Assembly (NCBI GenBank): GCA_018668595.1
Contig: JABJCP010000035.1
Coordinates: forward strand, 216,978-280,977
Source: Candidatus Woesearchaeota archaeon
GTDB taxonomy: Archaea > Nanobdellota > Nanobdellia > Woesearchaeales > UBA11576
Length of the DNA stretch: 64,000 bases
Direction of reading: 5' to 3'
The notes under the pieces: generated by a model
Database searches by the model: none
Told to the model about the DNA's origin: nothing
Seen by the model: only the letters and a program-made list of their open reading frames with translations
Shown here: positions 14,240 through 62,312 of the stretch, piece after piece
Position numbering within the stretch: the stretch's first letter is position 1
Layout of the letters: every line of letters begins with the position of its first letter
Program-made: the position numbers and the translations under genes

Positions 14240-14278
14240 TTATAAGCTTTTCGCTTTTTAACTACTTTAGAGTGGTTA
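14240..14278 (-). promoter_or_regulatory. Palindromic site plus BRE/TATA promoter
   Basis: Minus strand: ACCACT-ctaa-AGTAGT-taaaaagcgaaaag-CTTATAA. Confidence 0.7.
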
Positions 14279-14290
14279 TAAATAAAGAAT

Positions 14291-14947
14291 TCAATCAGAA
14301 TGGATTATTAAGTCATAATGCTTAATAAGCTCTTCAGCTAAATCCACAACTAGTTTAGATTTACTTTCATTTTTGCTTTTTTGAAAAGTAGACATTGAAC
14401 AATCCCAAATCATTTGCCCAAATTGAATTCCTTTTTCAATTAAATCAGAATTTTTCAAATCTTCTCGAGTCCATTTGTGTTTTATCAAATTAAATAAGTG
14501 CTGATGCGCATATAATTCTTGTACATCAAAATGACATTGAAAATTAACATAATCTGAGTCAAAAAGATTTACTCTTTTTCTATTCGCAAATTGTTTCCAG
14601 TAGGTTTGCTGAGGTAAAAAAATTCCTGATTTTTCAATTTGTTCTAATGAACAAGTAAACTTACCGACGAACAAATAACAATCAATTGCTAATTTATCTA
14701 GTGTTTCCTGATCATTATTTTTTTTTAATTCATCTTTAAAATACAATGAATATTTATTCATTAAATCATCTACACTGATTTTTTTTGACACAATATCTCG
14801 TGCATTTCGCATTACTTGAACATGTGTTAATGCATCAATTCCATACCAAAGAATTTCGTGCCCGTAAGTGGTACAGCTGTTAATTTCTTCAACAGTTAAT
14901 GCATTTAATTGAGTTTTTATAGATTCATCTAATATTGGATAATTCAT
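14291..14947 (-). CDS. Hypothetical protein
   Basis: 218-aa ORF with a TATA-like sequence about 25 bp upstream. Confidence 0.65.
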   Translation of the reverse strand: MNYPILDESIKTQLNALTVEEINSCTTYGHEILWYGIDALTHVQVMRNARDIVSKKISVDDLMNKYSLYFKDELKKNNDQETLDKLAIDCYLFVGKFTCSLEQIEKSGIFLPQQTYWKQFANRKRVNLFDSDYVNFQCHFDVQELYAHQHLFNLIKHKWTREDLKNSDLIEKGIQFGQMIWDCSMSTFQKSKNESKSKLVVDLAEELIKHYDLIIHSD

Positions 14948-15003
14948 ACTTCTAGCTATACGTTACGTATTTTTAAATTTTTATATGTTTAAGAATTAAT
15001 TAA

Positions 15004-15933
15004 TTATCTTCTTCTGCCAGATCCTGCTGCGCCCATTCTTCTAGCGCCTGATCTGCTGTACTTTATCTTTCGTTCTTTAGTTGCTTTTCTTCTTGCAGAA
15101 TAACATTCATCACAATATATTGGTGTATCTTTTGTTGGCGTGAATGGAACTGTGCATTCAACTCCACATTTGAAACACTTTGTTTTATGTTGTGGTTTAG
15201 AATCAAAATCAGGTCTTCCAAATCTTTCTCGAGTTTTTGCTCTTCCTCTTCGGGTTATTGGATCTTCATATTCATCTCTCGCACTAGTTCTTGGACCGTC
15301 TGAATGTGATGAACTTGATCTATTAAATTCAGTATAATTTGCTGATCTTTTTCTATCTCTTCTTATTTTTCCAAATGGATTAGGAGGCTCTACAAATTCT
15401 GCTTTTTTTCTTTTTGAAACTTCTCGTCGATCTTCTCTTGGTTTTTTAGGCCCTTTCCGATCATCATCTGGTCTACTACTCTCTCGACTATACTTTTTTC
15501 CACTACTTTGCCTATCATCATATCTGCTAAATTTCTTACGATCATCAGTTGGTTTACTTCGACCTCTTTCACTTTCTCTACTTTTTGGCCGATCATCATC
15601 TCGCGAACTTCGCGAAGAAGTTCTACTGCTCCCTCTATTATATTCTCTTCCGCGAGGTTTATCATCATCACGCTTACTTCGACTTCTTAGTCCCTCGCGT
15701 CCGCTACTTCTACTTGGTCGATCACCTTCTCTGCGACTTTTACTAGGTCCTCTTGAAGAACTACTGCTGCGAGTTCTTCCGCTACTTGGTCGATCATCAT
15801 CTCTTCGAGGTCCTCTTCTTTCACTACGTCCACTACTTGAACGATCATCATCGCTAGATCTTCCAGAACTTTTTCTACTAGAATTCCGTTCTGATTTAGA
15901 TCTTACTCTTCTTGGTGTGCTTAGTTTGCTCAT
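15004..15933 (-). CDS. Arg/Ser/Asp-rich low-complexity protein with C-terminal CxxC-x17-CxxC domain
   Basis: About 240 aa of RS/DDDR repeats, then HKTKCFKCGVECTVPFTPTKDTPIYCDECY. Confidence 0.8.
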   Translation of the reverse strand: MSKLSTPRRVRSKSERNSSRKSSGRSSDDDRSSSGRSERRGPRRDDDRPSSGRTRSSSSSRGPSKSRREGDRPSRSSGREGLRSRSKRDDDKPRGREYNRGSSRTSSRSSRDDDRPKSRESERGRSKPTDDRKKFSRYDDRQSSGKKYSRESSRPDDDRKGPKKPREDRREVSKRKKAEFVEPPNPFGKIRRDRKRSANYTEFNRSSSSHSDGPRTSARDEYEDPITRRGRAKTRERFGRPDFDSKPQHKTKCFKCGVECTVPFTPTKDTPIYCDECYSARRKATKERKIKYSRSGARRMGAAGSGRRR

Positions 15934-16021
15934 ATTTATCTATATTTTCAGGACTTATTTATAAATATATATGGTGGGATTTCACAAACTATAAAAAGAT
16001 ACTAATAATCAATCAATTAAA

Positions 16022-18781
16022 ATGACTACAATACCTCAAAATAATAAAACTTCTTGGATAAAAAATATTATCATAATTGTTTTTGTGCTTATTTTCATTG
16101 GAATCTTTGCATTAGCAGGATTAATAACTGATTTTTATTGGTTTGATGCTTTGGGTTTTGCAAACATTTTCACTATTTCATTATCAACTAAAATCTTAAC
16201 ATTTGCAGTAGCAGCAGTATCTTTTTTCATATTCCTGTTTATCAACCTAGCAATATCTTCAAAAATTAATACATTGAAAAAACAAAAAGAGGTATTATCT
16301 CTGAAATTTAAATCATTAATAGCATTAGTAATTTCGATATTTGTGGGATTTACTGCAACTTCTGCTTGGTTTACTATCCTTAAATATTTGAATCGAACAA
16401 GTTTCAATATTGCAGATCCAATTTTTGCAAAGGATGTTTCATTTTATGTTTTTACTCTTCCATTTTATTCAGCAATTTGGACATTTGTTTTTGCAACTGT
16501 TTTTGTAACATTAATTTTAGTAATTTTGGATTATGTTAAATCAATTATTAGTAATAAATTACAAACAACAATTGATCCTGTAAAAGCAGCTAATGATCCA
16601 TTCGGACTCAAAACAGCATTTTCTCTTCTCAAAAATCATGCAGCAATTCATTTGTCAGTTTTAGCAGCAATGATATTTACACTTCTTGCAGCAAGACATT
16701 ATTTATCATTTTTCTCAATCATGTTTTCAGAACAGGGAATTGTTGTGGGTGCAGGTTATGCAGATGTTGTTGCATACCTTCCAATTTTAAAAATTCTAGC
16801 AATCGTTGCATTAATTGTTGCAGCATTATTCCTTGTATGGACGTTTGTAATTGCAAAGCAGCCTAACTTAAAAAAGAGACATATTATTTTCTATGCATTA
16901 TTCATATACATTCTATTTTTATTCGTTGGACCAACTATTATTCCTGGAGTTATTCAATCATTTAAAGTTTCTCCGAATGAAATAAACTTGGAAAAACCTT
17001 TTATTGAAAATAATATAGAATTTACAAGAATAGCATATGGTCTTGAAAATGTTGAAGAAAGTGAATTTGAAGTAGCAAAGTCTATCACTCCAGAACTTTT
17101 AGAAGCGTCGCCTGAAACCATGGATAATATTCGTATTCTTGATTGGCGTCCTCTTACAAAAACTTACAAACAAACTCAAGAAATTAGATTATATTATGAT
17201 CTCTCAGGAATTGACATAGATCGTTACAATATTGATGGCAAGTATACTCAAGTTATGCTTGCACCTAGAGAATTAGAACAGACTCAAATCACTCCGAATG
17301 CTCAAACATGGGTTAATATTCATATGGTTTATACTCATGGTTTTGGCGTTGTTATGAGTCCTGTAAATAAGGTCACAAGTCAAGGTCTTCCAGAGTATTT
17401 AATAAAAGATATTCCGCCTATTTATGCAGTTGATGAACCTTTATTAAAAATAGATCAACCGCAGATTTATTATGGTGAAAAGTATGGTTCTTTTGTTTTA
17501 ACAAATACTAATACAAACGAGTTTGATTATCCTAAAGGTAATAGTAATGAATATTTGAGATACGATGGAAAAGGAGGCGTTACTCTTAATTCTTTTTGGA
17601 AAAAGGTTTTAATGGCAATTCGTTTTGCAGACATAAAAATACTTCTTTCAGAAGATATAACTCCAGAAAGTAAAGTTATGTTTAATCGTCAGATTCAGGA
17701 GAGGATTTCAAAAATCACTCCTTTCTTATCTCTTGATGCAGATCCTTATCTTGTAATAAATGAGGGGAAACTTTATTGGATTCAAGATGCTTACACATCA
17801 ACAGGCAACTTCCCATATTCTGCAAAGTATGGTGGAATTAATTACATAAGAAATTCTGTTAAGGTTGTTGTTAATGCATATGATGGAGATGTTAGTTTTT
17901 ATGTTGTTGATAAAAAAGATCCTTTAATGCAAACTTATGCAAAGGTTTTCCCAAAGCAATTCAAAAGTTTTGATCAGATGCCTGAAGGATTAAAATCTCA
18001 TTTGAGATATCCTGAAGATTTATTTAAAATTCAGTCTCAGATTTATAGTACATATCACATGGATGATGCAACTGTTTTTTATAATAAAGAAGATGCTTGG
18101 CAGATTCCGTATGAAGTTTATGGTGTTGGTCAACAAACTGTTGTCGAGCCGTATTATATGGTTATGAATCTTCCTGATGAAACAGAAGAAGAATTTGTTT
18201 TAATGACATCATTTACTCCAATTAAAAAGGATAATATGATTGCTTGGATGGCTGCACGTTCTGATGGAGATAATTATGGTAAACTTTTACTTTACAAATT
18301 TCCAAAAGATAAACTTGTATACGGACCGTTGCAGATTGAGGCAAAGATCGACCAGGATTCTGAGATTTCTCAGCAGTTAACTTTATGGTCTCAACAAGGA
18401 TCAAGAGTAACAAGAGGAAACTTATTAGTAATACCTATACAAGACAGTCTGCTCTACATCGAACCATTGTATATTCAGGCAGAAACTGGTCAGCTTCCAG
18501 AACTTAAAAGAGTTCTTATTTCTGACGGAGAACGTGTTGTGATGGAAGTAGATTTAGGAACTGCTCTTGAAAGTTTGTTTGGTAAATCTAAAACTCCAAA
18601 ACCAATTGAATATAATGACGAAGGAATAGAAATTTTACAAACTGATGCAGATTTAATTAATGAAGCTAATCAATATTACACTGATCTTCTAACCTCGATG
18701 ACTAATAATGATTGGGTTTCATTTGGAGAAAACTTTGATAATCTTGGTAAAGTTTTGGATGAATTAAACTCTGAAGAATAA
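16022..18781 (+). CDS. UPF0182 family membrane protein
   Basis: TDFYWFDALGF, DPIFAKDVSFYVF, GAGYADV, DIDRY, YTHGFG, YIRNSVK, RYPEDLF, GNLLVIP. Confidence 0.93.
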   Translation: MTTIPQNNKTSWIKNIIIIVFVLIFIGIFALAGLITDFYWFDALGFANIFTISLSTKILTFAVAAVSFFIFLFINLAISSKINTLKKQKEVLSLKFKSLIALVISIFVGFTATSAWFTILKYLNRTSFNIADPIFAKDVSFYVFTLPFYSAIWTFVFATVFVTLILVILDYVKSIISNKLQTTIDPVKAANDPFGLKTAFSLLKNHAAIHLSVLAAMIFTLLAARHYLSFFSIMFSEQGIVVGAGYADVVAYLPILKILAIVALIVAALFLVWTFVIAKQPNLKKRHIIFYALFIYILFLFVGPTIIPGVIQSFKVSPNEINLEKPFIENNIEFTRIAYGLENVEESEFEVAKSITPELLEASPETMDNIRILDWRPLTKTYKQTQEIRLYYDLSGIDIDRYNIDGKYTQVMLAPRELEQTQITPNAQTWVNIHMVYTHGFGVVMSPVNKVTSQGLPEYLIKDIPPIYAVDEPLLKIDQPQIYYGEKYGSFVLTNTNTNEFDYPKGNSNEYLRYDGKGGVTLNSFWKKVLMAIRFADIKILLSEDITPESKVMFNRQIQERISKITPFLSLDADPYLVINEGKLYWIQDAYTSTGNFPYSAKYGGINYIRNSVKVVVNAYDGDVSFYVVDKKDPLMQTYAKVFPKQFKSFDQMPEGLKSHLRYPEDLFKIQSQIYSTYHMDDATVFYNKEDAWQIPYEVYGVGQQTVVEPYYMVMNLPDETEEEFVLMTSFTPIKKDNMIAWMAARSDGDNYGKLLLYKFPKDKLVYGPLQIEAKIDQDSEISQQLTLWSQQGSRVTRGNLLVIPIQDSLLYIEPLYIQAETGQLPELKRVLISDGERVVMEVDLGTALESLFGKSKTPKPIEYNDEGIEILQTDADLINEANQYYTDLLTSMTNNDWVSFGENFDNLGKVLDELNSEE

Positions 18782-18839
18782 TTAATAATAAAATAAGAAA
18801 GAATAAAATATTTTTTTAATTTTTTCATTTCACTTTTTT

Positions 18840-19509: not shown

Positions 19510-19800
19510 TTACAAATCGTAGTTTTCTTTAACCTTATTATCTAGTGTTCCAATAATTGGTTTGCCATCAAGCTCTACAACTGCAATATTTCCATCAATT
19601 ACATAGAATTTATCCACAAGTCCATTTTTGTTCAGATCGCCTTCTTGTAGTTCATATCCTGCTCTTGCTCTTATTCTTTCAGCATCGCCTTCATTACATT
19701 GATTAACTCCGAATCCTATTCCTACTATCACTGTTGCAATGCTAAGTCCTTGTCCAATGTTTGAAAAAAAGCTTGAATTGTACCAACTGTCTTTTGCCAT
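19510..19800 (-). CDS. Small membrane-anchored protein with a DxNxNG Ca-binding-like loop
   Basis: N-terminal TM segment, GDLNKNGLVD, SD AGGGGG. Confidence 0.65.
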   Translation of the reverse strand: MAKDSWYNSSFFSNIGQGLSIATVIVGIGFGVNQCNEGDAERIRARAGYELQEGDLNKNGLVDKFYVIDGNIAVVELDGKPIIGTLDNKVKENYDL

Positions 19801-19876
19801 TTTTTTGCCCCCTGATTAAACATTTAAGTTCATTTAACTTAGTTATGGCCTATTTTTTATAAACTTTTCTTTTTAA

Positions 19877-19892
19877 ACTACTTCGAAGTAGC
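19877..19892. promoter_or_regulatory. Palindromic site between divergent TATA boxes
   Basis: ACTACT-tcga-AGTAGC. TTTATA lies 13 bp away on the minus strand and 15 bp away on the plus strand. Confidence 0.7.
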
Positions 19893-19940
19893 AATAAATC
19901 AGTAAATTTTATAAATAAGGAGGATATTTTTAACACTAAA

Positions 19941-20252
19941 ATGCGTCAATATTCAGAAGAATCAATAAAGCATAAATTTAAGGGAGACTACTGCCTTGTT
20001 GTATTCAGTAATGAACAAGGAGGATATTCAATTCATCATCCTGTTAGGAATAAGTTTCTGGATAAAGTTATAGACTTGCTAAGATCGCCAAATACTCTTG
20101 ACGCTTGTTATGTTGGAATCAATAAACAAATTGCAGAAGAAATTACAGCAGAAATAATGCAAGTAGAACATGAAACCAACAATTGTAAATACATAAAATC
20201 TGAAGAGTCAGTTCTTGATGATTTGGATAATTTATTGGTTAATGGGAACTAA
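19941..20252 (+). CDS. Hypothetical protein
   Basis: 103-aa ORF downstream of a TATA box. Confidence 0.6.
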   Translation: MRQYSEESIKHKFKGDYCLVVFSNEQGGYSIHHPVRNKFLDKVIDLLRSPNTLDACYVGINKQIAEEITAEIMQVEHETNNCKYIKSEESVLDDLDNLLVNGN

Positions 20253-35761: not shown

Positions 35762-35799
35762 TATTTAAATCTTTCGCCTTTTTACTACTTTAAAGTCAT
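35762..35799 (-). promoter_or_regulatory. Palindromic site plus BRE/TATA promoter
   Basis: Minus strand: ATGACT-ttaa-AGTAGT-aaaaaggcgaaaga-TTTAAATA. Confidence 0.65.
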
Positions 35800-35915
35800 A
35801 ATCAATAAAATATTCTAAATTCTAAACAAATAAGTAGTTTGTTAGCAAAATGCGCATTTTCAAATAATATATACTTATATTGCTGAATATATTACTATTT
35901 CTTAGGGTAATGAAG

Positions 35916-41272: not shown

Positions 41273-41314
41273 AATCGTGTAGATTTAGAAGGTGCTATTT
41301 AAAGTTTATTATTA

Positions 41315-41336
41315 TTAACCACTACCAAGTGGTTAA
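41315..41336. promoter_or_regulatory. Perfect palindromic site between divergent promoters
   Basis: TTAACCACT-acca-AGTGGTTAA. A TATA-like box lies 14 bp from the core on both strands. Confidence 0.75.
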
Positions 41337-41403
41337 AAAGCGAAAGATTTATAAATAGTAATCAGTTTAGAAGCTCTAAATATTAAATTTGTGTTGAGAT
41401 AAA

Positions 41404-46918: not shown

Positions 46919-47042
46919 ATTCTTTATTAAGTAATAAATAGTATATAAATTTTATCATTTTGTCAATTTAATTACTGCAAAATTTTAAATATAGGTATAG
47001 TACTATTGAGTAGTATTAAAATTGAATTGAGGTGAATTGAAT

Positions 47043-47459
47043 ATGAATATTCAAAATATTAAAAATAAAATAGTACAAAAAACAAAAAGAGCAGTAGATT
47101 GCGGAATTACAATTGGTGTGTTAACGCTTTTTGGAGCAAGTATAACTATTGCAGTAAACGCGCCATTAATTCCAATTCAAGCAGGAATAGAATGTTTGCT
47201 TGACGAAGACCAAATAACTGCAGAAGGGACTTTAATGGAAATAAAATCCAGAACAATGATGCAGACAAAAGGTATGCTTTATTCGGGAGTTTTTGAATTA
47301 GATTCTGGAGAAACTATTGAGTTGTATGATTCGTCTAGAATTCTTGAAGGTAAATATTTTGCAAACAGCATTATGCTGAATTTAGAAATTGGAGAAAAAT
47401 ATGTGATGGAATTTCAAGGTTCTGATATGTTGGGCTATGTTATTACAGACACAAATTAA
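47043..47459 (+). CDS. Membrane-anchored hypothetical protein
   Basis: SD GAGGTGA, one TM segment, beta-rich C-terminus. Confidence 0.65.
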   Translation: MNIQNIKNKIVQKTKRAVDCGITIGVLTLFGASITIAVNAPLIPIQAGIECLLDEDQITAEGTLMEIKSRTMMQTKGMLYSGVFELDSGETIELYDSSRILEGKYFANSIMLNLEIGEKYVMEFQGSDMLGYVITDTN

Positions 47460-51165: not shown

Positions 51166-51283
51166 ATTATCACCTCTTAACTCAATTTAGTTTATTATTT
51201 CTTTTCTATATAAATTTTATTCTTTACTTTTGTTCAAATTTGCAGATTTTAGGGTTTTAAACCCAAATCAACCTTTTAAAATT

Positions 51284-51322
51284 CTTACTTTTTAGTAGTA
51301 AATAAACAGAAAAATTTATAAA
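51284..51322 (+). promoter_or_regulatory. Palindromic site plus BRE/TATA promoter
   Basis: CTTACT-tttt-AGTAGT-aaataaacagaaaaa-TTTATAAA. Confidence 0.6.
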
Positions 51323-51461: not shown

Positions 51462-51950
51462 ATGGTAATGTCTAATGGATTAGGGGATGGAGAACTGGTA
51501 AAAAATCAAGAAAAAAAACTAGTTAGATTAGAAGTTATGTTACCAGAATCTAAATATGTTAAGGAATGGGGTTATTCGCAAGGAACAACATATGCAAGTA
51601 TGACACTTAATATTGCAATAAAAGCAGAATATGATTTTGATCTTATGCAAAAATTATTAGTTGATAGTGGTTTGCAAATTAATAGCATTTCAAATGGAGG
51701 AATTTTTGTTGACAAGAGATGGTTTAAAGGAGATCTGACAAAAGATTCAAGATATGATATTCGCGTTTCAGGTCAACATGATGGTGGTTTTACCAAAGTT
51801 CAATTATATGCAAATTCAAATTACAAAAAAGATAATCCTAAAATTCAAGATTTTCCAACATTAGTTAAAGTAGTTTCAGATTATATTAATCAAGTTGAAA
51901 AAACAAAAGAAGAAAAACAAGACGATCCTGATTTATTACACGACGCATAA
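51462..51950 (+). CDS. Hypothetical protein
   Basis: 162-aa ORF; start uncertain. Confidence 0.6.
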   Translation: MVMSNGLGDGELVKNQEKKLVRLEVMLPESKYVKEWGYSQGTTYASMTLNIAIKAEYDFDLMQKLLVDSGLQINSISNGGIFVDKRWFKGDLTKDSRYDIRVSGQHDGGFTKVQLYANSNYKKDNPKIQDFPTLVKVVSDYINQVEKTKEEKQDDPDLLHDA

Positions 51951-52070
51951 ACCTATGTTAATTTAATTATATATCATTTTTTTTATCTTAATTACTTTTT
52001 TCAAAAGGGGCTATGATTTATAACCAGTAAATTTAACTAGTCAGATAATTATATTTTCGGAGGGGCAAAA

Positions 52071-52658
52071 ATGGAAGATTTACAAACAATGATTCAGAAA
52101 ACAGTTTTAGAATTAGAGTTGGATGATGTGGTTCAACAAACAGTTTTTACAGGTATTGCAAACGCATTAGCTATTTCAAATTCTAAATTTCAAGAATATT
52201 GTAGTTCACCTGAACTTCAACAAAAATACGATAAAGATCCTGAAACTGTTGACGAAGAAGTGCAGATTTACAATGACATGGGTAAAAAAATGGGTTCTAT
52301 TTTTAGAAATGCTTATGATTCTCGAGATGAGTTCGAATCTCTTGGAGAACAAGCAGAAAAACTAAGAGATAATTTAGCAGATTCATTTACAGAAATATAT
52401 GTTTTATTATTATCTAATCAAGCATATAGTGATTTTATCGCTAAAAAAGTTGAAGGTCTTGCTGACTTAGGGGAAGAAGAATTAGAAAAATTAGAGCAAG
52501 AGGGTGAAGAAGGAATTGTTAACAGAACTAAAGAGTTTGCCAAAGAATTTGTTGATAAGTTAGAAGTCAAAGATGAAACAAAAACATATTTAGTATCTCA
52601 GTCCGAATTTTTAGCAAGACAATTTATTGCTGTAGATAAACGCAGTTCTTATTTTTAA
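52071..52658 (+). CDS. Acidic helical hypothetical protein
   Basis: 195 aa. SD GGAGGGG. Confidence 0.7.
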   Translation: MEDLQTMIQKTVLELELDDVVQQTVFTGIANALAISNSKFQEYCSSPELQQKYDKDPETVDEEVQIYNDMGKKMGSIFRNAYDSRDEFESLGEQAEKLRDNLADSFTEIYVLLLSNQAYSDFIAKKVEGLADLGEEELEKLEQEGEEGIVNRTKEFAKEFVDKLEVKDETKTYLVSQSEFLARQFIAVDKRSSYF

Positions 52659-52711
52659 TAAATTTTTAATATTTTAAAATTATTTTATTTAATTTCCTGG
52701 AGGGGATTTTA

Positions 52712-53242
52712 ATGATAGATGAACTTTCAAATAAAATTGAAACAGTTGTTAGGGATTGTGGAATCGATGATGTTTTTGAATCTATTGTAGGTTACGCTTT
52801 GTCAGAAAGTGCAAAAGAAGCAGTGGTAAAGTGCAAAAATTATTTAGAGTCTGAAATAAGAGTGCAGTATGAAGCAAGTTTTAAAACTTGGGAATCAGAT
52901 ATAGATTTAATTAGCAATCTTGCAGATAAAGTTGTTGAGTATTTTAAAGAAGATTTTCAAAAAAAAGATGCAATTATTAGTTTGTTAGATAATAAAGAAT
53001 TTGATTTAATGGATACATACTCTGGTTTAATTTCAGATCAGTATAAACTTTCTATGGTTGATTCAACATTTCGTAAATTTATGTCTGAAAAAATAATAGA
53101 AATTCCTCAAGAAAAATCAAATGCTGAATTCGAAAGTGAAATCTTCAAAATAACGGAAGAGTTTGCAGAAAAATTAAATTTAACAATTTATAACGATAAT
53201 AAATCTAAAGTAAATGAATATTTGCATTCTTTATTTACTTAA
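52712..53242 (+). CDS. Acidic helical hypothetical protein, possible distant paralog of 52071-52658
   Basis: SD GGAGGGG. Shares IETVV..GIDDV / IQKTV..ELDDV and TEEFAEK / TKEFAKE. Confidence 0.65.
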   Translation: MIDELSNKIETVVRDCGIDDVFESIVGYALSESAKEAVVKCKNYLESEIRVQYEASFKTWESDIDLISNLADKVVEYFKEDFQKKDAIISLLDNKEFDLMDTYSGLISDQYKLSMVDSTFRKFMSEKIIEIPQEKSNAEFESEIFKITEEFAEKLNLTIYNDNKSKVNEYLHSLFT

Positions 53243-53379
53243 GTTTATTTATTTATTTATTTTCTTGTAGTTTTATTTGGTTCATTTATTCATTCTTGCA
53301 TTTTTTTCTTTCTTTCTTTTCTCTATGTTTAACTAATATAAGCTAAATATATTTAACTTAGTTTTATATTTTTTTAGTT

Positions 53380-53778
53380 ATGGAATTCGAAAATAATAAT
53401 CCAATAAATTCAACTATAAAGCAAAATCTTGCATTGATGAATTCAACTTCAGAAGGATCTTTAATGGATATATTGATTGAAGATAGTTTAGGTGGTAATG
53501 CAGGGGATTGGAATGATTTGTCTTGTGTTGCTACAAATTTTTGTTATAATCCGAACACTGGAGCATTAATTAAGTTTGATAATTATTCTGAGGAGTCTCA
53601 AATGCTTGGTGCTTGTTCTCGCGGTTATTTTAGAATTGCGATTGATTTCAAAGAGCTTGATGACAAAGTAAGTTCTGGAATTATTGAGTTAGATGCAAGG
53701 GATGCTTCTGATTCTGCGAAAATTGTTCTTAAAAAAACAGTCGAAGAATTTAATCGTTTGAATTCGTTTTACGGCTAA
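53380..53778 (+). CDS. Hypothetical protein
   Basis: 132-aa ORF. Confidence 0.6.
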   Translation: MEFENNNPINSTIKQNLALMNSTSEGSLMDILIEDSLGGNAGDWNDLSCVATNFCYNPNTGALIKFDNYSEESQMLGACSRGYFRIAIDFKELDDKVSSGIIELDARDASDSAKIVLKKTVEEFNRLNSFYG

Positions 53779-53803
53779 ATTATTCATTTAGTAATTAAAA
53801 TTT

Positions 53804-54151
53804 GTGAGGGATGTTGAAATGGTTGTACATACAATTGATGGAAATAAAGATTATAGACAAGGATTAGAATTAACACTAAAATTGGAAGAAGATGATAAAG
53901 TTTTGTTTAGATTCAAAGGGGGTTGTGATGATCGTTCTTATCCAGTTTTGCATGTTGTAGATCAACTTCATAAAAAAGGTTTTGATATGAGACTCCTTGC
54001 TGAGTTTCCTTATGGTGCATTTAGATATGAGCCAGAAAACAATAGACCAAAAATGCCGCATGATATTTATTCATTAATTGGATCTGGCAGTGGAGATGCA
54101 GTTCATCCTCAATATGTTAATGAAATTGTTGCTAAGAAAAAGAATAGTTAA
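53804..54151 (+). CDS. Hypothetical protein
   Basis: 115-aa ORF; start may be the ATG at 53819. Confidence 0.6.
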   Translation: MRDVEMVVHTIDGNKDYRQGLELTLKLEEDDKVLFRFKGGCDDRSYPVLHVVDQLHKKGFDMRLLAEFPYGAFRYEPENNRPKMPHDIYSLIGSGSGDAVHPQYVNEIVAKKKNS

Positions 54152-54188: not shown

Positions 54189-54617
54189 TTATTCTTCAGT
54201 CACATGCTGGATAAATGCGTTGTAATGGTTTGACATGCTGTATGGGAGTTCAGTTCCCCAAATTCCTTTAGGATTTACATAAATTCCGACGAGACATTTA
54301 GCATCTATACTATACATAAGTCGTTTACATAAAGAATGAGGATCTTGTATTCCTTCAAAGTTTTTTATAATCAATAAATAATTAGGATCGTCTGTTTGAA
54401 TTGTAGGTAATTGTTCTTCATCAAGTTTTATTTCTTTAAATTCAAAAGGTAGATTTTTTCCTGTTAATTTATCTGATAAATAATCTATACTGTTTTGAAA
54501 TATTTGTTCATTTGATCTGCAAAAAAATATTGTTGGTCCGGATTCAGAAAATGAATATCCTGTTACTAAACCATCTAATCGTTCTGTAATTTCGGTTGGA
54601 AGATCTGTATTTTTCAT
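54189..54617 (-). CDS. Hypothetical protein
   Basis: 142-aa ORF with a palindrome-TATA promoter. Confidence 0.6.
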   Translation of the reverse strand: MKNTDLPTEITERLDGLVTGYSFSESGPTIFFCRSNEQIFQNSIDYLSDKLTGKNLPFEFKEIKLDEEQLPTIQTDDPNYLLIIKNFEGIQDPHSLCKRLMYSIDAKCLVGIYVNPKGIWGTELPYSMSNHYNAFIQHVTEE

Positions 54618-54677: not shown

Positions 54678-54715
54678 TTTATAAGTCTTTCTATTTGTAA
54701 TTACTGGCGAGTTAC
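54678..54715 (-). promoter_or_regulatory. Palindromic site plus BRE/TATA promoter
   Basis: Minus strand: GTAACT-cgcc-AGTAAT-tacaaatagaaaga-CTTATAAA. Confidence 0.55.
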
Positions 54716-54724
54716 TAATTGTGG

Positions 54725-55304: not shown

Positions 55305-55883
55305 TCATTTCGCTCTTCGCTTATTCGCTCTTAGTCCAGGTCTAATTTTCTCAGCACCCTTACCTTTGTTTCTCAAACCACGACTCTTTCTACCTGCACT
55401 TGTAAGTCCTCTAGTGACTCTTCTTGCTTGTCCAGGTTTAGTAGCCCACTTAAGATTTTTATCTTTTACAATTTGAGGGTGAGCTGTATCGACGAGAATT
55501 ACTTCGTGCCAATGATATTTTCCATCTTTAGCAACCCAGTATGAATTTATAACATTGCAGTTTGGATACTTTTTTTGTACTCTTTCTTCTGCAACTCTTT
55601 GATAATTTACTCCAAGAATTTTAAGTCTTCTCATTGCTTTTGGTCTTCTACCGCCTGCAAATTTAGGACGCATTCTTCCGCCTCTATTAACTCTTTGTCT
55701 TATTAGAATTATTCCTTGTTTTGCTTTATATCCTAAAGAACGAGCTCGATCTAATCTTGTAGGTCTCTCGATTCGAACTGTTACAGGCTCTCTTCGCCAT
55801 TTAATAAGCCTTTCTCTCCACAATTCAGGTATATTAGCTTTAGGTTTCTTCCAAAGCTCTTTAACGTATTTTAAATATCCCAT
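55305..55883 (-). CDS. rpl15e: 50S ribosomal protein L15e
   Basis: RIERPTRLDRARSLGYKAKQG, NSYWVAKDG, RGLTSAGRKSRGL. Confidence 0.98.
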   Translation of the reverse strand: MGYLKYVKELWKKPKANIPELWRERLIKWRREPVTVRIERPTRLDRARSLGYKAKQGIILIRQRVNRGGRMRPKFAGGRRPKAMRRLKILGVNYQRVAEERVQKKYPNCNVINSYWVAKDGKYHWHEVILVDTAHPQIVKDKNLKWATKPGQARRVTRGLTSAGRKSRGLRNKGKGAEKIRPGLRANKRRAK

Positions 55884-56026
55884 TTTTACTTAGCCTCCAT
55901 TGTTTTGCTATTTAAAGCACTCTAAATGAATTTAAAGTACTTTTTTTGAGATTCAGGTAAGCTATTACCTACATTTCTCAAACATAACAATCAAAGATGT
56001 GTTTATAAATGTTTTCCGAATATATT

Positions 56027-56064
56027 ACTACTGATGAGTGATCAATAATCGGAACATTTATATA
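56027..56064 (+). promoter_or_regulatory. Palindromic site plus BRE/TATA promoter
   Basis: ACTACT-gatg-AGTGAT-caataatcggaaca-TTTATATA. Confidence 0.7.
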
Positions 56065-56087: not shown

Positions 56088-57092
56088 ATGGTCGAAAAAA
56101 GATATGGTATAATTGCAGATTTGCACAAACATCCTGCAATTGTTGGTTTAGCAGTAGATGCACTTATCAAAGAAGGTATTGATACTTTAATTCTTAATGG
56201 AGATCTTGGAAATGATGCAGTAATTCAAGTAGCTGGAGGTCAAGCTAAAGTTTCAGGCTATGATTTTATCGACGCTGTTTTAGAAATCGTTGCTCAAAAA
56301 GGTCTTGAAACATTTGTTTCTGCAGGAGGAGTTGATAAAATTCATGTTCAACCAGGAAGTCACGAATCTGTTGCGGCATTCCATGAAGTTATAAAAGAAA
56401 AATCAAAAAAATATTCTAATATTATTAGTGTTTTTGACGTTCCAAAAGTCGAAGAAGATTCTCATCATTTAGTTTTTCTTCCAGGATCTGATTGGGTTAG
56501 TGGAGGACAATATCATGTTTTTCCTGAAAGTTCAGGTCTTAAAAGCGGAGTTTATCTTAATGATGGTTCAAATTATCATAAAATAGAAGACGATAATTTA
56601 ATGAGTCAAATTGCAGCAGATCCTAGATATAGAGACTCTCTTATGTGGGTTACTAATATGGAGGATGTTAGAGATCTTGTAACCCAACCTGATAAAACAA
56701 TTCTTGTTTCACATATACCTCCAAAATTTGATAATGTTGATAATTGTGTTGACTTTGCACATTTTTGTAAAATTAATGATGGTGGGATAGCTCCTATTTT
56801 TGCTGCAGACTATTTCAGAGCTCAAGGCGCAACGGTTGTGGAAAAAAAGGAAAATAGAGGTAATGCTGATTTAAGAAAATTAATTGATGATGTTGGAATT
56901 ACTAAAGGAGTTCATAACCATTTTCACGAATCAGGTCATAGAGCAAACAATTTAAGATCTGATTCTGTAAAACAAGGAGAATTTGTCGACGATCTTTTTT
57001 ATAATTCGGGAAGTCCTGATCAAGGTCAGTGTGGTATTTATAGTGTAAGAAGTGATGGAAAAGTTGCTTACAAAAATATTTCTTTATCTTAA
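56088..57092 (+). CDS. Calcineurin-like metallophosphoesterase
   Basis: IADLH, LNGDL, PGSHE, VSHIPP, NHFHE. Confidence 0.85.
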   Translation: MVEKRYGIIADLHKHPAIVGLAVDALIKEGIDTLILNGDLGNDAVIQVAGGQAKVSGYDFIDAVLEIVAQKGLETFVSAGGVDKIHVQPGSHESVAAFHEVIKEKSKKYSNIISVFDVPKVEEDSHHLVFLPGSDWVSGGQYHVFPESSGLKSGVYLNDGSNYHKIEDDNLMSQIAADPRYRDSLMWVTNMEDVRDLVTQPDKTILVSHIPPKFDNVDNCVDFAHFCKINDGGIAPIFAADYFRAQGATVVEKKENRGNADLRKLIDDVGITKGVHNHFHESGHRANNLRSDSVKQGEFVDDLFYNSGSPDQGQCGIYSVRSDGKVAYKNISLS

Positions 57093-58153
57093 TTCAAAGT
57101 ATTTATTATCAATTCATAACCTCGACCACCAGGAGAATTTGCTCCAATCAATCGATCACTTAAATCTGAAAATTTACCATAGAATTCACTAAGTGCATAT
57201 TTTTTTATTTCTTCATTTGTTGCAAGATTTAAATTTTTAACATTGCACACTCCCACAATTCCATCTGAATGAGTTTCAATATTAATCAATTCAATATCGC
57301 ATTTTGCAGGATCATATTGTAACATATTTGTTCCAAAAAAACTAGTTAGTGCGTGAATTTTTCCAAGTTTTAGATTAAATGCATTTATTATTGAATTCGA
57401 ATCTACTTTGTTAACTCCATTATGTGCGTGTGTTGCAAGCAAAATAACTTCATTTTTTGTAAATAGATTATAGTCTGTAGGATTAGGAATATTGAATTTT
57501 TTAGCAGAATTTTGTAAAACTAAATCTTCTTCATTATTTGGTAATCTGAATGGATTTTTTAAATTTTTTTGATTAATCAAATGAGTTCTAAATTCAATTT
57601 CGTGAGGTGTGATTTCAATAATGTGTTCTGAATCATAAAATAGCTCGACGAAATAATGTGCAATATATTCTGCAGCAGCGTGCATTGACAAAGCACAATT
57701 AAGATGATCTGTTAATGGTTTAAAATTTTTTTCTAAAACAGAGTTATTTAATGCAGTTTCATGTTGTTGTGCATATGATCTGATAAATTCTTTCATACTT
57801 TTATTTAAATTAAAATGATATCCGTGAAAAACTTCGTGAACAAAATGTTCTGGTTTAATATCTTTTTTTTCTGTTTCATTTGGAAATTCGATTATATTAT
57901 CTTTATTAAGTGGTCTATATTGTGCAATTATTGTTCCGAGTTTAGGTTTGTGTAGGGCATCGGAATTAGTTTTTTGATCTATTTCTGTTTTGAATAATTC
58001 TTGATCAAACTCAGGTTTCACAGAAGTTTTTTCAATTCGTCCTGCTTTAAATTGAATATAATTTACATTAAGAAATTTAGAAATGAGTTGACTTTTTTCA
58101 TCAACAAATTTTTGAAGCTCTGCTATTTTTCCTTCTTCACTCAATACACTCAT
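57089..58153 (-). CDS. Hypothetical zincin-like protein (HExxH)
   Basis: FVHEVFHGY plus a downstream E (AAEYIA). Start MSVLSEE inferred from the promoter position. Confidence 0.65.
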   Translation of the reverse strand: MSVLSEEGKIAELQKFVDEKSQLISKFLNVNYIQFKAGRIEKTSVKPEFDQELFKTEIDQKTNSDALHKPKLGTIIAQYRPLNKDNIIEFPNETEKKDIKPEHFVHEVFHGYHFNLNKSMKEFIRSYAQQHETALNNSVLEKNFKPLTDHLNCALSMHAAAEYIAHYFVELFYDSEHIIEITPHEIEFRTHLINQKNLKNPFRLPNNEEDLVLQNSAKKFNIPNPTDYNLFTKNEVILLATHAHNGVNKVDSNSIINAFNLKLGKIHALTSFFGTNMLQYDPAKCDIELINIETHSDGIVGVCNVKNLNLATNEEIKKYALSEFYGKFSDLSDRLIGANSPGGRGYELIINTLN

Positions 58154-58174
58154 ATATTTGGTATTGTTACAAGA

Positions 58175-58212
58175 TTTATAAAATTTATGCAAATTAATCA
58201 CTAAAAAGTAAA
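58175..58212 (-). promoter_or_regulatory. Palindromic site plus TATA promoter
   Basis: Minus strand: TTTACT-tttt-AGTGAT-taatttgcataaat-TTTATAAA. Confidence 0.6.
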
Positions 58213-58301
58213 TACTGTGTTATAATGTGTATTATTTATAAGTATAATGAGGAAATTTTACTTAATTTTAAATACCTCTTCAAAATATAGTTGATAATAC
58301 A

Positions 58302-59951: not shown

Positions 59952-59959
59952 CTGATAAA

Positions 59960-60907: not shown

Positions 60908-60940
60908 AAAGCATTAACAATTAATTCTAATCAATAAAAA

Positions 60941-61120: not shown

Positions 61121-61271
61121 AAAATTAAAAAACTAGAACTAAAAAACAATAACTCGATTCTTCATTTTGAAATTCATTGAACTCACAAAACTCGTTTAAA
61201 ATTCAAATAAAAAAAAGAAGTTATTAAAAAAATAATAAAAAATAAATTAATAAAAAATTTAAAATAATTAT

Positions 61272-61652
61272 TTACAAGTTATACATTTCTCTGTATGTTT
61301 GAGCTTCGAATTCCATGTGGTAATTATTGTATTTAGCCCATAGATCTTTTTTATTTTTTTCATTAACTCTGATCACTTTTGCATCTCCGCCAACCATTAC
61401 AACATTGCCGCTATTATCAATAAAGCTCCATCCATCAGAGTTTCCTTCACTGTCACAAAATACATCTTCCATTTTCCAGACATCCATAATTCTTCCGCCG
61501 CTTTGGCTGATTACTATGTAGTCTCCTTCATAAGATCCAAATACTCCGCCATCTTTTTCAACGCTTTTACTCCATTTAGCACAACCTGCACTAGACATTG
61601 CTATTGCTGCTAGTCCTGTTAGAGCTAATCCTGCCATTAATTTTTTATTCAT
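61272..61652 (-). CDS. Lipoprotein-like hypothetical protein
   Basis: Signal peptide ending SAGC. SD GAGGT. Confidence 0.7.
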   Translation of the reverse strand: MNKKLMAGLALTGLAAIAMSSAGCAKWSKSVEKDGGVFGSYEGDYIVISQSGGRIMDVWKMEDVFCDSEGNSDGWSFIDNSGNVVMVGGDAKVIRVNEKNKKDLWAKYNNYHMEFEAQTYREMYNL

Positions 61653-61701
61653 TTTATTTTACCTCTCTAAGTTTAGTTAATATTTAATCATTTTACAATT
61701 T

Positions 61702-62079
61702 TTATTCTAAATCATAACAATCTGCACTTACAATATTTTTATATGACGAAAAAAATGGAATTCTAAAGCCATATGTTTTTATGTCGCAAACTTGTCCTTC
61801 TTTTTCTGCTGAGCTTAGTTTTGCTTGTAGGTCTGATGAACTATACTTTAATTCAAGAAGTGAATCTGTATTTTCAAAACTTCTTTCAACACCTGATTCA
61901 ATATCTGATGTGAAGACTACATATTTTTCTTCATCGCCATCTTTTACTCTTTCTGTTCCTACAATTTTTACTTTGTAATCAGATCTTACAAAGTGGTGTC
62001 TTCCGATTAATCCTAGTCCAACAACTGCTACTCCTGCAACAATTGCTGTTGTTTTTAATGTTTTTTTTACATCTACCAT
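61702..62079 (-). CDS. DUF1523-like membrane-anchored protein
   Basis: N-terminal TM, FENTDSLLELKYSSSDLQA, YGFRIPFFSSYKNI. Confidence 0.7.
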   Translation of the reverse strand: MVDVKKTLKTTAIVAGVAVVGLGLIGRHHFVRSDYKVKIVGTERVKDGDEEKYVVFTSDIESGVERSFENTDSLLELKYSSSDLQAKLSSAEKEGQVCDIKTYGFRIPFFSSYKNIVSADCYDLE

Positions 62080-62273
62080 TTTATTTCTACCTCTATAATT
62101 TACTCTAGTGAGTATTATAATAATTTACAATATTAGAACCTCTCTTTTTATTACTGTCAAAAGACAACAATTAATCCTTAGAAACTCGCGTCTCTTTATA
62201 AATCTTTCGATTTTTAGGGGCATTTTAGCACATATTAAGTATAAAATAGAAAAAAAATGCACAGAATTGATTT

Positions 62274-62312
62274 ATCACTAAATAGTGCTCTTAATTTAGA
62301 AAATTTTATAAA
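62274..62312 (+). promoter_or_regulatory. Palindromic site plus BRE/TATA promoter
   Basis: ATCACT-aaat-AGTGCT-cttaatttagaaaat-TTTATAAA. Confidence 0.6.

What the first reader, a model, noticed from the sequence alone, without database searches (positions are those of the whole stretch)
14240..62312. Candidate activator regulon: ACYACT-N4-AGTRGT fixed 13-15 bp upstream of TATA at eight promoter regions
Seen at 14261, 19877, 35784, 41318, 51284, 54700, 56027, 58197 and 62274 are the cores read; listed by region they are 14261-14276, 19877-19892, 35784-35799, 41318-41333, 51284-51299, 54700-54715, 56027-56042, 58197-58212 and 62274-62289 (the 54700 site is the weakest match). Each is followed after 13-15 nt, usually containing a purine-rich BRE, by a TATA box. 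The sites at 19877 and 41318 serve divergent TATA boxes on both sides. Established: archaeal activators such as Ptr2 (Lrp family) and TrmB-family TFB recruiters bind just upstream of the BRE. The Thermococcales TGM motif (TATCAC-N5-GTGATA) is similar but 1 bp shorter. The downstream genes are mostly ORFans plus the paralog array, putative peptidases, a GNAT and a phosphoesterase. Inference: a global co-activated programme, possibly a host-contact or life-stage regulon. A similar site at 46999-47014 lies downstream of a TATA, a repressing position, in the gap next to the double-Lrp gene.
Basis: partly seen in the sequence, partly recalled or inferred. Interest (0 to 1): 0.8.

Follow-up and report, generated by a model that had tools for sequence, protein, structure and literature searches.

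The report
Conserved palindromic operator upstream of archaeal promoters
A 20-base palindrome sits at a fixed distance in front of the TATA box of more than a hundred genes in this Woesearchaeota (DPANN) genome and its relatives. It is most likely the docking site of a conserved TrmBL2-like regulator that also controls its own gene.

Summary
The element is a 20-bp palindrome, TWACYACT-N4-AGTRGTWA. Its edge lies 11-13 bp upstream of TTTATAWA, with an A-tract and a CGAAA BRE in between. A matrix trained on this genome finds 127 of 140 sites in intergenic DNA, which is 11% of the genome. Intergenic DNA holds 122 sites against 6.4 expected. Of the 127 intergenic sites, 102 have a TATA box at gap 10-14, and 24 have one on both sides.

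The module recurs across the order and in other orders of the class (named records: Candidatus Woesearchaeota / Nanoarchaeia MAGs). The roughly 113 downstream genes are unrelated to one another and mostly have no Pfam family.

The half-site resembles known TrmB-family operators (TACT-N3-AGTA; TGM, whose spacer is 1 bp shorter). The best candidate binder is a pair of TrmBL2-like proteins encoded outside the window. They were found in 60 of 61 order genomes and share a nearly invariant recognition helix. In 67 of 78 public orthologue loci the gene carries the site plus a TATA box at the canonical spacing, against 0 of 74 control flanks.

Whether binding activates or represses is not shown. The geometry favours activation at most promoters. 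A "host-contact" programme has no support.

The parts
14259..14278 (.). 20-bp palindromic site TAACTACTTTAGAGTGGTTA (score 22.5). It serves the minus-strand TATA CTTATAAA at 14239-14246 and the gene 13731-14171 (-), 146 aa, no Pfam hit.
19875..19894 (.). Site AAACTACTTCGAAGTAGCAA (score 16.3) with TTTATAAA on both sides, at 19856-19863 and 19908-19915. The divergent genes are 19510-19800 (-) and 19941-20252 (+); neither has a Pfam hit.
35782..35801 (.). Site TTACTACTTTAAAGTCATAA (score 16.8). Left TATA variant TTTAAATA at 35762-35769; gene 35277-35711 (-), no Pfam hit.
41316..41335 (.). Best site in the window, TAACCACTACCAAGTGGTTA (score 22.6). Right TTTATAAA at 41348-41355 leads to 41404-43524 (+), 706 aa, no Pfam hit. 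Left TTTAAATA at 41296-41303 leads to the GNAT acetyltransferase gene 40736-41272 (-).
46997..47016 (.). Non-canonical site ATAGTACTATTGAGTAGTAT (score 12.7). It lies 5 nt downstream of the TATA-like TTTAAATA at 46984-46991, between that box and gene 47037-47459 (+), which is a repressor-type position. It is 81 nt upstream of the double-Lrp gene 45938-46918 (-).
51282..51301 (.). Site TTCTTACTTTTTAGTAGTAA (score 17.2). Right TTTATAAA at 51315-51322; gene 51462-51950 (+), reached through a long leader; no Pfam hit.
54698..54717 (.). Weakest canonical site, TAATTACTGGCGAGTTACTA (score 13.9). Left CTTATAAA at 54678-54685; gene 54189-54617 (-), no Pfam hit.
56025..56044 (.). Site TTACTACTGATGAGTGATCA (score 19.9). 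Right TTTATATA at 56057-56064 leads to 56088-57092 (+), no Pfam hit. A left TTTATAAA at 56002-56009 sits at gap 15, off the usual spacing, towards the ribosomal L15e gene 55305-55883 (-); that link is uncertain.
58195..58214 (.). Site TAATCACTAAAAAGTAAATA (score 15.8). Left TTTATAAA at 58175-58182 leads to the ORF 57089-58201 (-). The real start is probably the ATG about 30 nt after the TATA. No Pfam hit.
62272..62291 (.). Site TTATCACTAAATAGTGCTCT (score 14.6). Right TTTATAAA at 62305-62312; gene 62340-62942 (+), no Pfam hit.

Best explanation
The motif is the operator of a dimeric winged-helix regulator of the TrmB family. The most likely binder is the conserved pair of TrmBL2-like proteins of Woesearchaeales, encoded outside the window at G000:C32:91101-91916 (-) ('A') and C32:81718-82521 (+) ('B'). 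The 20-bp palindrome TWACYACT-N4-AGTRGTWA is centred about 22.5 bp upstream of the TATA start. An A-tract separates it from a near-consensus CGAAA BRE. From that position the bound dimer would abut TFB/TBP, so I infer that at most of the roughly 100 promoters it helps pre-initiation complex assembly (activation). One palindrome can serve two divergent promoters. At a minority of promoters the same site, or a half-site, lies between the TATA box and the transcription start, where it should repress. Examples are the genes divergent from double-Lrp genes and the clade-B TrmBL2-like gene itself. The regulator gene is itself a conserved target. What is shown: the motif, its spacing, its intergenic restriction, its conservation across the order and class, and the conserved site in front of the TrmBL2-like gene. 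What is inferred: which protein binds, and the sign of regulation.
For: Motif and spacing. Of 127 intergenic sites, 102 have a TATA at gap 10-14, 24 of them on both sides, and the gap histogram shows 25, 61 and 34 at gaps 11, 12 and 13 against about 1-6 at gaps outside 10-15. Symmetry: T at -32 and A at -13 are each 97% conserved, which points to a dimer rather than an extended BRE. Orientation: the BRE lies between the site and the TATA box, and the genes start on the far side. It is not a duplicated cassette: information content drops to background outside the module, and the 113 targets form only two small paralogue clusters. Conservation: a strict pattern matches in 21 of 41 related genomes while the reversed control matches in none. 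With a loose pattern, G033 gives 30 against 2 control and G000 gives 60 against 9, and module-like hits also appear in other orders of the class. TrmB link: known TrmB-family operators are TACT-N3-AGTA, TATCAC-N5-GTGATA and TACT-N7-8-GAGTA, and position decides activation or repression (PMC4158304, passages). Every one of the 41 relatives has at least 2 PF01978 genes. A and B match solved TrmBL2 structures over their full length (5box, E=5e-20). They were found in 60 of 61 order genomes and 79 of 81 class genomes, and their recognition helix PRSRSYDVLESLEKKG is nearly invariant. Self-regulation: 67 of 78 distinct upstream regions of public orthologues have a site with score 10 or more plus a TATA box (7/8 or better) at gap 10-14, against 0 of 74 downstream flanks. 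G000 A has TTGTTACTATCAAATAGCAA, then 13 nt, then TTTAAATA. Clade B promoters carry an AGTAGTAC half-site directly after the TATA box in 12 of 19 loci, against 0 of 11 clade-A loci. G028 has only 2 PF01978 genes yet 7 loose-pattern hits against 1 control.
Against: No binding or expression data exist; the sequencing-run tool could not be reached. A conserved site in front of the TrmBL2-like gene also fits the reading that this gene is merely a conserved target of another factor. Thermococcus TrmBL2 is described as a chromatin protein and global repressor whose ChIP peaks carry AT-rich motifs, not this palindrome (PMC3031468 abstract in the listing; PMC11840125 passages). Promoters with the site have a BRE closer to consensus than other promoters (C-7 60% against 32%, G-6 68% against 36%), which is not what one expects of activator-dependent weak promoters. 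G000 also has about 31 further TrmB paralogues, and one of them could bind the site in this genome. Some related genomes that have the A/B pair show loose-pattern counts no higher than the control, for example G041, G047 and G030. The matrix was trained on 58 of the G000 sites, so G000 counts are partly circular; the tests in other genomes are not. Gene calls come from my own crude ORF picker.
Confidence: 0.6

Rival explanations
1. The geometry is the same and the binder is TrmBL2-like, but it acts as a repressor or silencer. The palindrome would be a high-affinity nucleation site next to the promoter, from which a TrmBL2-type filament covers BRE/TATA and keeps lineage-specific genes off until a signal releases it.
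For: T. kodakarensis TrmBL2 is described as a chromosomal protein and global repressor (PMC3031468 abstract, listing). The core promoters next to the site are already near consensus. Targets in G000 and G033 are largely genes without known families or homologues. Repressor-type placements of the same motif exist.
Against: Nucleated spreading does not need a gap fixed to within 1 bp upstream of the BRE. Archaeal repressors typically overlap BRE/TATA or the start site, whereas sites upstream of the BRE are the activating position for TrmBL1, Tgr and VNG1451C (PMC4158304). The excess of homologue-less targets over their neighbours was not significant (5 of 25 against 11 of 35).
Confidence: 0.2
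2. The palindrome is bound by a different factor: another TrmB paralogue, a double-Lrp protein, or an unrecognised protein. The TrmBL2-like genes would then be only conserved regulon members.
For: G000 has 33 PF01978 genes and 16 double-Lrp-like matches. Nine of 32 TrmB genes, against 171 of 2186 other genes, have a site within 250 nt upstream. Eleven of 26 double-Lrp homologue loci have a site with score 10 or more nearby. Assigning a factor from self-regulation is an inference.
Against: The motif is conserved order-wide, whereas the expanded paralogues have diversified recognition helices and their own distinct palindromes. The double-Lrp family was not found in 22 of 61 order genomes with this query, including G034, G048, G028 and G037, which have the motif. 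Only 1 of 26 double-Lrp loci has the canonical arrangement. Only the A/B pair combines near-universal presence with an invariant DNA-reading helix.
Confidence: 0.15
3. It is not a regulator site at all but a repeated promoter cassette or mobile-element remnant, copied around the genome with its BRE/TATA.
For: The whole 40-bp module (palindrome, A-tract, CGAAA, TTTATAAA) looks stereotyped.
Against: Positions N4 and all positions outside the module carry no information. Downstream genes are unrelated to one another. Both the motif and its spacing are conserved in different families and orders in front of non-homologous genes. The two half-sites are conserved symmetrically.
Confidence: 0.03

Closest known systems
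Thermococcales glycolytic motif (TGM, TATCAC-N5-GTGATA), bound by TrmBL1 / Tgr
   Same: Both are palindromic wHTH operators with a related half-site (A-T/C-C/T-A-C). Both occur upstream of BRE/TATA (the activating position) or downstream of the TATA box (the repressing position), and both define large regulons controlled by a TrmB-family protein (PMC4158304).
   Different: Here the spacer between the CAC and GTG triplets is 6 nt (T-N4-A), not 5. The exact TGM occurs once in the genome. The candidate binder is TrmBL2-like and lacks a full sugar-binding domain. The target summary shows no sugar-metabolism families. The position relative to the TATA box is far more uniform.
TrmB operator TACT-N3-AGTA (P. 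furiosus / T. litoralis malE promoter) and TACT-N7-8-GAGTA (Halobacterium VNG1451C)
   Same: All share the (T)ACT...AGT(A) inverted-repeat core (PMC4158304). Many sites here read CTACT-N4-AGTAG.
   Different: The spacer is N4. The site is 20 bp with conserved outer T/A positions. The TrmB operator overlaps BRE/TATA and represses, whereas this site lies 11-13 bp upstream.
TrmBL2 (TK0471 / PF0496), chromatin protein and global repressor of Thermococcales
   Same: The candidate regulators A and B align with solved TrmBL2 over residues 12-261 (E=5e-20) and share the helix motif P-R-x-Y-D-V-L-x-S-L-E-K-K-G-F. Like TrmBL2, they are the most conserved TrmB-family members of their lineage.
   Different: TrmBL2 is reported to bind coding and intergenic DNA with little specificity (table in PMC4158304), and its ChIP peaks carry AT-rich motifs (PMC11840125). 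Here a discrete palindrome at a fixed promoter position is inferred, there are two paralogues per genome, and both have conserved self-regulatory sites.
Ptr2 (M. jannaschii) and TFB-RF1 (P. furiosus), upstream activators
   Same: The binding site lies directly upstream of the BRE, and the proposed mechanism is recruitment of TBP or TFB (cited in PMC4158304).
   Different: They belong to other protein families (Lrp; PF1088) and act at a handful of promoters. Here there are more than 100 promoters, and their BREs are strong rather than weak.

Membership tests
TGM (Thermococcales glycolytic motif) | Inverted repeat TATCAC-N5-GTGATA | tested here: not met
   The exact TGM occurs once in the genome, and the N6 version not at all. 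The relaxed half-site pair peaks at N6 (43) rather than N5 (29). The 16-mer ACYACT-Nn-AGTRGT occurs 11 times at n=4 and 0-1 times at other spacers.
TGM (Thermococcales glycolytic motif) | Placed upstream of BRE/TATA at activated promoters and downstream at repressed promoters | tested here: met
   Placement only was tested. Of 127 intergenic sites, 102 lie 10-14 bp upstream of a TATA box. Downstream placements occur at 46997 in the window and in other genomes. The regulatory outcome was not tested.
TGM (Thermococcales glycolytic motif) | Regulon of glycolytic, gluconeogenic and sugar-transport genes | tested here: not met
   The Pfam summary of 102 targets lists TrmB, AsnC, TFIIB, MazE/AbrB, DAGK, metallophosphoesterase, CofD, S6e, GT2, SLT and M10, with no glycolytic enzymes among the 25 families shown. 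Ten of the 12 window targets have no Pfam hit.
TrmBL2 subfamily of the TrmB family (candidate regulator A/B) | N-terminal TrmB-type winged helix (PF01978) | tested here: met
   A scores 71 bits (E=7.6e-20) and B scores 63 bits (E=2.4e-17); the cut-off is 25.6 bits.
TrmBL2 subfamily of the TrmB family (candidate regulator A/B) | Full-length similarity to TrmBL2 rather than to sugar-sensing TrmB | tested here: met
   5box/5bpd/5bqt TrmBL2 match at E=5e-20 over query residues 12-261. TrmB 3qph matches only residues 5-104, at E=1.3e-8.
TrmBL2 subfamily of the TrmB family (candidate regulator A/B) | No functional sugar-binding effector domain | tested here: inconclusive
   The proteins are 267-271 aa. 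A has no PF11495 hit. B has a weak partial hit (E=3.5e-6, profile positions 6-124 of 233). The sugar-binding residues were not examined.
TrmBL2 subfamily of the TrmB family (candidate regulator A/B) | Abundant chromatin-like binding with low sequence specificity | not testable with these tools
   No expression or binding data are available. The sequence evidence here points instead to discrete sites.
Upstream activator site of the Ptr2 / TFB-RF1 type | Site immediately upstream of the BRE, on a fixed helical face | tested here: met
   The gap from the 20-mer to the TATA box is 11, 12 or 13 nt in 25, 61 and 34 cases, and the BRE lies in between.
Upstream activator site of the Ptr2 / TFB-RF1 type | Stimulates TBP/TFB recruitment at an otherwise weak core promoter | tested here: not met
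   Core promoters with the site have a stronger BRE consensus than those without. Stimulation itself cannot be tested here.
Repeated promoter cassette or mobile-element remnant | Similarity extends beyond the functional elements, and the associated genes are copies | tested here: not met
   Information content is at most about 0.3 bit per position outside -33 to +8. Among 113 targets there are only a 3-member and a 2-member paralogue cluster.

The most novel reading that the evidence does not exclude
In Woesearchaeales, and more widely in Nanoarchaeia, a TrmBL2-type protein that is known elsewhere as a weakly specific chromatin protein has become a sequence-specific master regulator. Two paralogues with the same DNA-reading helix would form a conserved circuit. 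Paralogue A would be driven from a deliberately weakened upstream site. Paralogue B would be held down by a half-site just after its TATA box, together with an inverted half-site about 30 bp upstream that brackets the core promoter. Together they would switch on about 5% of the genes, mostly fast-evolving lineage-specific genes, from a fixed position next to TFB. That would be the first regulon defined for a DPANN archaeon.
Probability: 0.3. Interest if true: 0.75.

Novelty: new variant of a known kind. Interest (0 to 1): 0.62.

Why it matters
DPANN archaea are uncultivated, have few regulators, and their gene regulation is essentially uncharted. My full-text searches (TrmB + DPANN; Woesearchaeota + promoter + transcription factor + motif; DPANN + regulon + binding motif; Woesearchaeales + transcriptional regulator; TrmBL2) found no description of this motif or of a Woesearchaeal TrmB regulon. 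If the reading holds, three things follow. First, there is a testable factor-operator pair conserved over a whole order or class, with more than 100 predicted targets per genome. That makes promoters, transcription units and a co-regulated set of "dark" genes predictable directly from MAG sequence. Second, it is a case in which a chromatin-type TrmBL2 protein reads a discrete palindrome. Third, the very strict site-BRE-TATA geometry makes it a useful natural system for studying how archaeal regulators contact TFB/TBP.

Tried and rejected
Ideas tested and rejected:
- The core ACT-N4-AGT as a genome-wide over-represented word. It is not over-represented; only its position relative to the TATA box and its flanks carry signal.
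- Reversed-genome null for the matrix. It gave oddly high counts (84 at score 12 or more). I replaced it with first-order Markov simulations of intergenic DNA.
- Duplicated cassette or paralogous targets. Rejected.
- A general excess of other palindromes at the same upstream position of all promoters. None was found: 18 perfect palindromes at the site position against 23 at a control position.
- Regulon conservation between G000 and G033. Of 28 G033 downstream genes, only 5 have a G000 homologue, and none of those homologues is a G000 target. The apparent excess of homologue-less targets is not significant against neighbouring ORFs (5 of 25 against 11 of 35, p=0.39).
- The double-Lrp protein as the binder. 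Weak case.
- Function of the 706-aa target 41404-43524. There is no Pfam hit. All Atlas hits were below 0.9 or under the bar and are leads only.
- The "paralog array" at 51462-54151. An alignment of six neighbouring products shows at most one plausible pair (52071 and 52712) and no array.
- Rfam and tRNA scans of the window found nothing.

Not used: read laying, structure prediction, fold search, complex prediction, the search for homologous proteins and the search of protein representatives. Supplementary files of papers were not consulted. The motif logo of PMC11840125 (its Fig. 7h) could not be seen, so I know only that the text calls it AT-rich.

Full report
SETTING. The window is G000:C22:216978-280977. 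The assembly has 2.32 Mb in 45 contigs at 30% G+C, with 90% completeness and 3.1% contamination. It has an archaeal 16S rRNA gene. Close homologues of one of its conserved proteins lie in public records titled Candidatus Woesearchaeota, Nanoarchaeota or Candidatus Nanoarchaeia MAGs. A number of those records carry other labels that look like mislabelling or mis-binning. The organism is therefore a DPANN archaeon of the Woesearchaeales type. Its relatives in the same order have genomes of 0.6-2.1 Mb. Gene coordinates outside the tool's ORF list come from my own greedy ORF picker (2218 ORFs, 88.7% coding) and are approximate.

T at -32 and A at -13 are each 97% conserved and mirror each other around the centre. 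The element is therefore a 20-bp palindrome, T-W-A-C-Y-A-C-T-N4-A-G-T-R-G-T-W-A. It is followed by an A-tract, a CGAAA(G) BRE and TTTATAAA. The full 16-mer occurs 11 times with a 4-nt spacer and 0-1 times with any other spacer.

A symmetrised matrix built from 58 seed sites gives 140 genome hits at score 12 or more. Of these, 127 are intergenic and 13 are coding, although coding DNA is 88.7% of the genome. Intergenic DNA holds 122 hits against 6.35 expected (maximum 11) in 20 first-order Markov simulations. At score 16 or more it holds 57 against 0.35. The seeds make this partly circular, but about half of the hits are not seeds.

Of the 127 intergenic sites, 102 have a TATA box (at least 7 of 8 positions) 10-14 nt from an edge. 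For 24 of them this holds on both edges, so a single palindrome serves two divergent promoters. The gap histogram reads 25, 61 and 34 at 11, 12 and 13 nt, against about 1-6 at gaps outside 10-15. The matrix recovers all ten reader sites (scores 12.7-22.6) and adds only one weak coding-region hit in the window. TTTATAAA is its own reverse complement, so I took direction from the BRE, which lies between site and TATA, and from the genes, which start on the far side.

WHAT IT IS NOT. It is not a copied cassette. Information content falls to background outside the -33 to +8 block and within the N4 spacer. The 113 genes I assign to sites form only one 3-member and one 2-member paralogue cluster.

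THE TARGETS. In the window, 10 of 12 putative targets have no Pfam hit at E of 0.01 or better. The other two are a GNAT acetyltransferase and, at an off-peak spacing, ribosomal protein L15e. For the 102 targets outside the window, a one-call Pfam summary found only 47 families in total. These were TrmB (3 members); AsnC/Lrp, DAGK, metallophosphoesterase and MazE/AbrB (2 each); and single hits that include a TFIIB-type factor, CofD, S6e, glycosyltransferases, an SLT transglycosylase and an M10-like peptidase. Targets are less often predicted membrane proteins than the genome average (14% against 26%). They less often belong to the leaderless class that is otherwise common here, marked by a TATA-to-ATG peak at 30-33 nt. 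I found nothing that indicates a host-contact programme.

CONSERVATION. A strict pattern (16-mer, 13-15 nt, TTTATA) matches in 21 of 41 genomes of the same genus, family or order. The reversed-pattern control matches in none. A loose pattern (core, 16-18 nt, TTTATA) gives 60 against 9 control in G000 and 30 against 2 in the complete genome G033 from another family. It exceeds the control in many of the order's genomes, though not in all. Hits in other orders of the class show the same flanks (AGTAGTWAC ... GAAAG. TTTATA).

In G033, 28 of the 30 hits have a downstream ORF. Only 5 of those ORFs have a G000 homologue, and none of the homologues is a G000 target. So the element is conserved but its gene set is not, as far as this one comparison goes. 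The shortage of homologues is not significantly different from that of neighbouring ORFs.

WHO BINDS IT? According to the TrmB-family review (PMC4158304; I read the passages returned by a term search), known TrmB-family operators are TACT-N3-AGTA, TATCAC-N5-GTGATA (the TGM) and TACT-N7-8-GAGTA. The same review states that they activate from upstream of BRE/TATA and repress from downstream. The present half-site (A-C/T-C/T-A-C-T) fits this group, with a spacing of its own.

G000 has 33 PF01978 genes over the cut-off, and all 41 relatives have 2-33. In G000, 9 of 32 TrmB genes have a site within 250 nt upstream, against 171 of 2186 other genes (p=7e-4). Most of the G000 copies are a lineage expansion with varied recognition helices.

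Two copies are different. These are A (C32:91101-91916) and B (C32:81718-82521), about 10 kb apart and 64% identical. Similarly spaced pairs of TrmB-family hits lie on one contig in several relatives. A aligns with solved TrmBL2 over residues 12-261 (E=5e-20). Homologues occur in 60 of 61 order genomes at E of 1e-30 or better, usually as two copies, and in 79 of 81 class genomes at E of 1e-10 or better. A tree separates clades A and B. Both clades keep the helix PRSRSYDVLESLEKKG almost unchanged.

The self-regulation evidence is the strongest link. In 80 public orthologue loci, 78 have a distinct upstream region of at least 150 nt. Of these, 67 contain a site (score 10 or more) followed by a TATA box at gap 10-14. 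None of 74 downstream control flanks does. These sites are often asymmetric: one good half and one weakened half (AATAGCAA or AGTACTAA). G000's own A gene has such a site about 220 nt upstream of its ATG.

Clade B genes have a different conserved promoter. It has a CGTAAC BRE and an ATATTAAT box followed immediately by AGTAGTAC. This occurs in 12 of 19 clade-B loci besides G000's own B gene and in 0 of 11 clade-A loci. By eye, in most of them an inverted (G)TACT lies about 30 bp upstream, so that the two half-sites bracket the core promoter. The same clade-B promoter type appears in other orders. G028 has only two PF01978 genes and still shows 7 loose-pattern hits against 1 control.

It belongs to another expansion (16 matches in G000). 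With this query it was found in only 39 of 61 order genomes, at 23-36% identity, and only 1 of 26 homologue loci has the canonical arrangement.

A SECOND PLACEMENT. Eleven of those 26 double-Lrp loci do have a site of score 10 or more nearby. In most of the eleven shown, and at the window's own locus, the site lies 80-145 nt upstream of the Lrp gene. In most of them, as I read the printed sequences, the site lies between a TATA-like box a few nt away and the start codon of the divergent gene. The window's 46997 site is of this kind: TTTAAATA at 46984-46991, 5 nt, then the site.

MECHANISM AND ITS UNCERTAINTY. Shown: a symmetric 20-bp element, locked to within 1 bp upstream of BRE/TATA, restricted to intergenic DNA, used in both directions, conserved across an order and beyond, and present in front of the most conserved TrmB-family gene of the lineage. 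Inferred: that the TrmBL2-like pair binds it (my odds are about 2 in 3), and that binding at the upstream position activates (about 1 in 2).

For activation: the position rule known for TrmBL1, Tgr and VNG1451C, and the strict helical phasing next to TFB's BRE. Against activation: site-bearing promoters have better, not worse, BREs (C-7 60% against 32%; G-6 68% against 36%) and an extra A-tract. In addition, Thermococcus TrmBL2 is described as a repressor and chromatin protein with AT-rich ChIP motifs (the abstract in the listing; passages of PMC11840125). No expression data could be obtained: searches failed because the service was unreachable.

NOVELTY. Five full-text searches and a term search in a 2026 Nanobdellota genome preprint returned nothing on this motif or on TrmB regulators in these archaea. 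In that preprint there was no occurrence of "TrmB" or "promoter". The library covers only open-access papers and preprints. I rate the finding as a new variant of a known kind: a TrmB-family operator with position-dependent logic, but with a new spacing, a TrmBL2-type candidate binder, an unusually rigid geometry, and a DPANN-wide distribution.

CAVEATS. Gene calls are crude. Counts in related genomes are small and the genomes are not independent. Some relatives that have the A/B pair show no excess of the loose pattern (for example G041, G047 and G030). The tallies include three genomes flagged as unpublished (G268, G269, G015), but no specific claim rests on them.

Noticed in passing
G000 genome-wide, e.g. 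C35:19655-20392, C38:109475-110206, C19:26998-27720, C21:151363-152124, C22:147672-148418 (outside the window): The TrmB family is greatly expanded: 33 PF01978 genes of about 240-270 aa with diversified recognition helices. Many have a two-tier promoter. A paralogue-specific GC-containing palindrome (e.g. CCCC-N4-6-GGGG, TCTCC-N5-GGAGA, GGTGGTAAATACCACC) sits directly upstream of the proximal BRE/TATA, about 30 nt before the ATG. In several of them the generic ACT-N4-AGT site plus a distal ATATAAA box lies about 82 nt upstream. Nine of 18 such genes have a palindrome there, against 51 of 1059 other genes (p=9e-8). This suggests a network of self-regulating paralogues, each with its own operator.
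   Followed up: partly
window 45938-46918 (-) and 15 further G000 loci; L228-L256 in relatives: The tandem (double) Lrp/AsnC protein is a second expanded regulator family: 16 matches in G000 and up to 22 in a relative. It has a recurrent divergent arrangement in which the motif lies between the TATA box and the start of the neighbouring gene.
   Followed up: partly
G000 genome-wide: The distance from TTTATAWA to the start codon peaks sharply at 30-33 nt (120 of 412 promoters with that box). This implies many leaderless mRNAs. Promoters with the palindrome more often have leaders of 50-150 nt.
   Followed up: partly
between each site and its BRE, e.g. window 41336-41347: An A-tract (77-86% A at positions -13 to -9 from the TATA start, against about 45% in other promoters) lies on the promoter side of the palindrome only. 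It may be a bend or spacer needed for contact between the regulator and TFB.
   Followed up: no
L122, L127, L128, L159, L175 and others (public records): Several public MAG records that carry a typical Woesearchaeal TrmBL2-like gene with its upstream site are titled 'uncultured Methanosarcinales', 'Candidatus Aminicenantes bacterium' or 'Bacteroidales bacterium'. These are probably wrong labels or mis-binned contigs.
   Followed up: no
window 1063-5023 and 16022-18781: UvrC and UvrB genes (bacterial-type excision repair) and a 919-aa UPF0182 membrane protein lie in the window of this DPANN genome.
   Followed up: no
window 41404-43524 (+): This is the 706-aa product behind the best site. It has no Pfam hit. 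The Atlas structure search gives only sub-threshold resemblance of its C-terminal 200 residues to domains found fused to PAAR, RHS or DUF4347 proteins. This is a lead only.
   Followed up: partly
The others do not.
   Followed up: partly
G000 as a whole: At 2.3 Mb (90% complete, 3.1% contamination) this genome is larger than every related genome sampled in the order (0.6-2.1 Mb) except G332, which is also about 2.3 Mb. It has among the largest TrmB and double-Lrp repertoires sampled. Regulator expansion appears to go with genome size.
   Followed up: no
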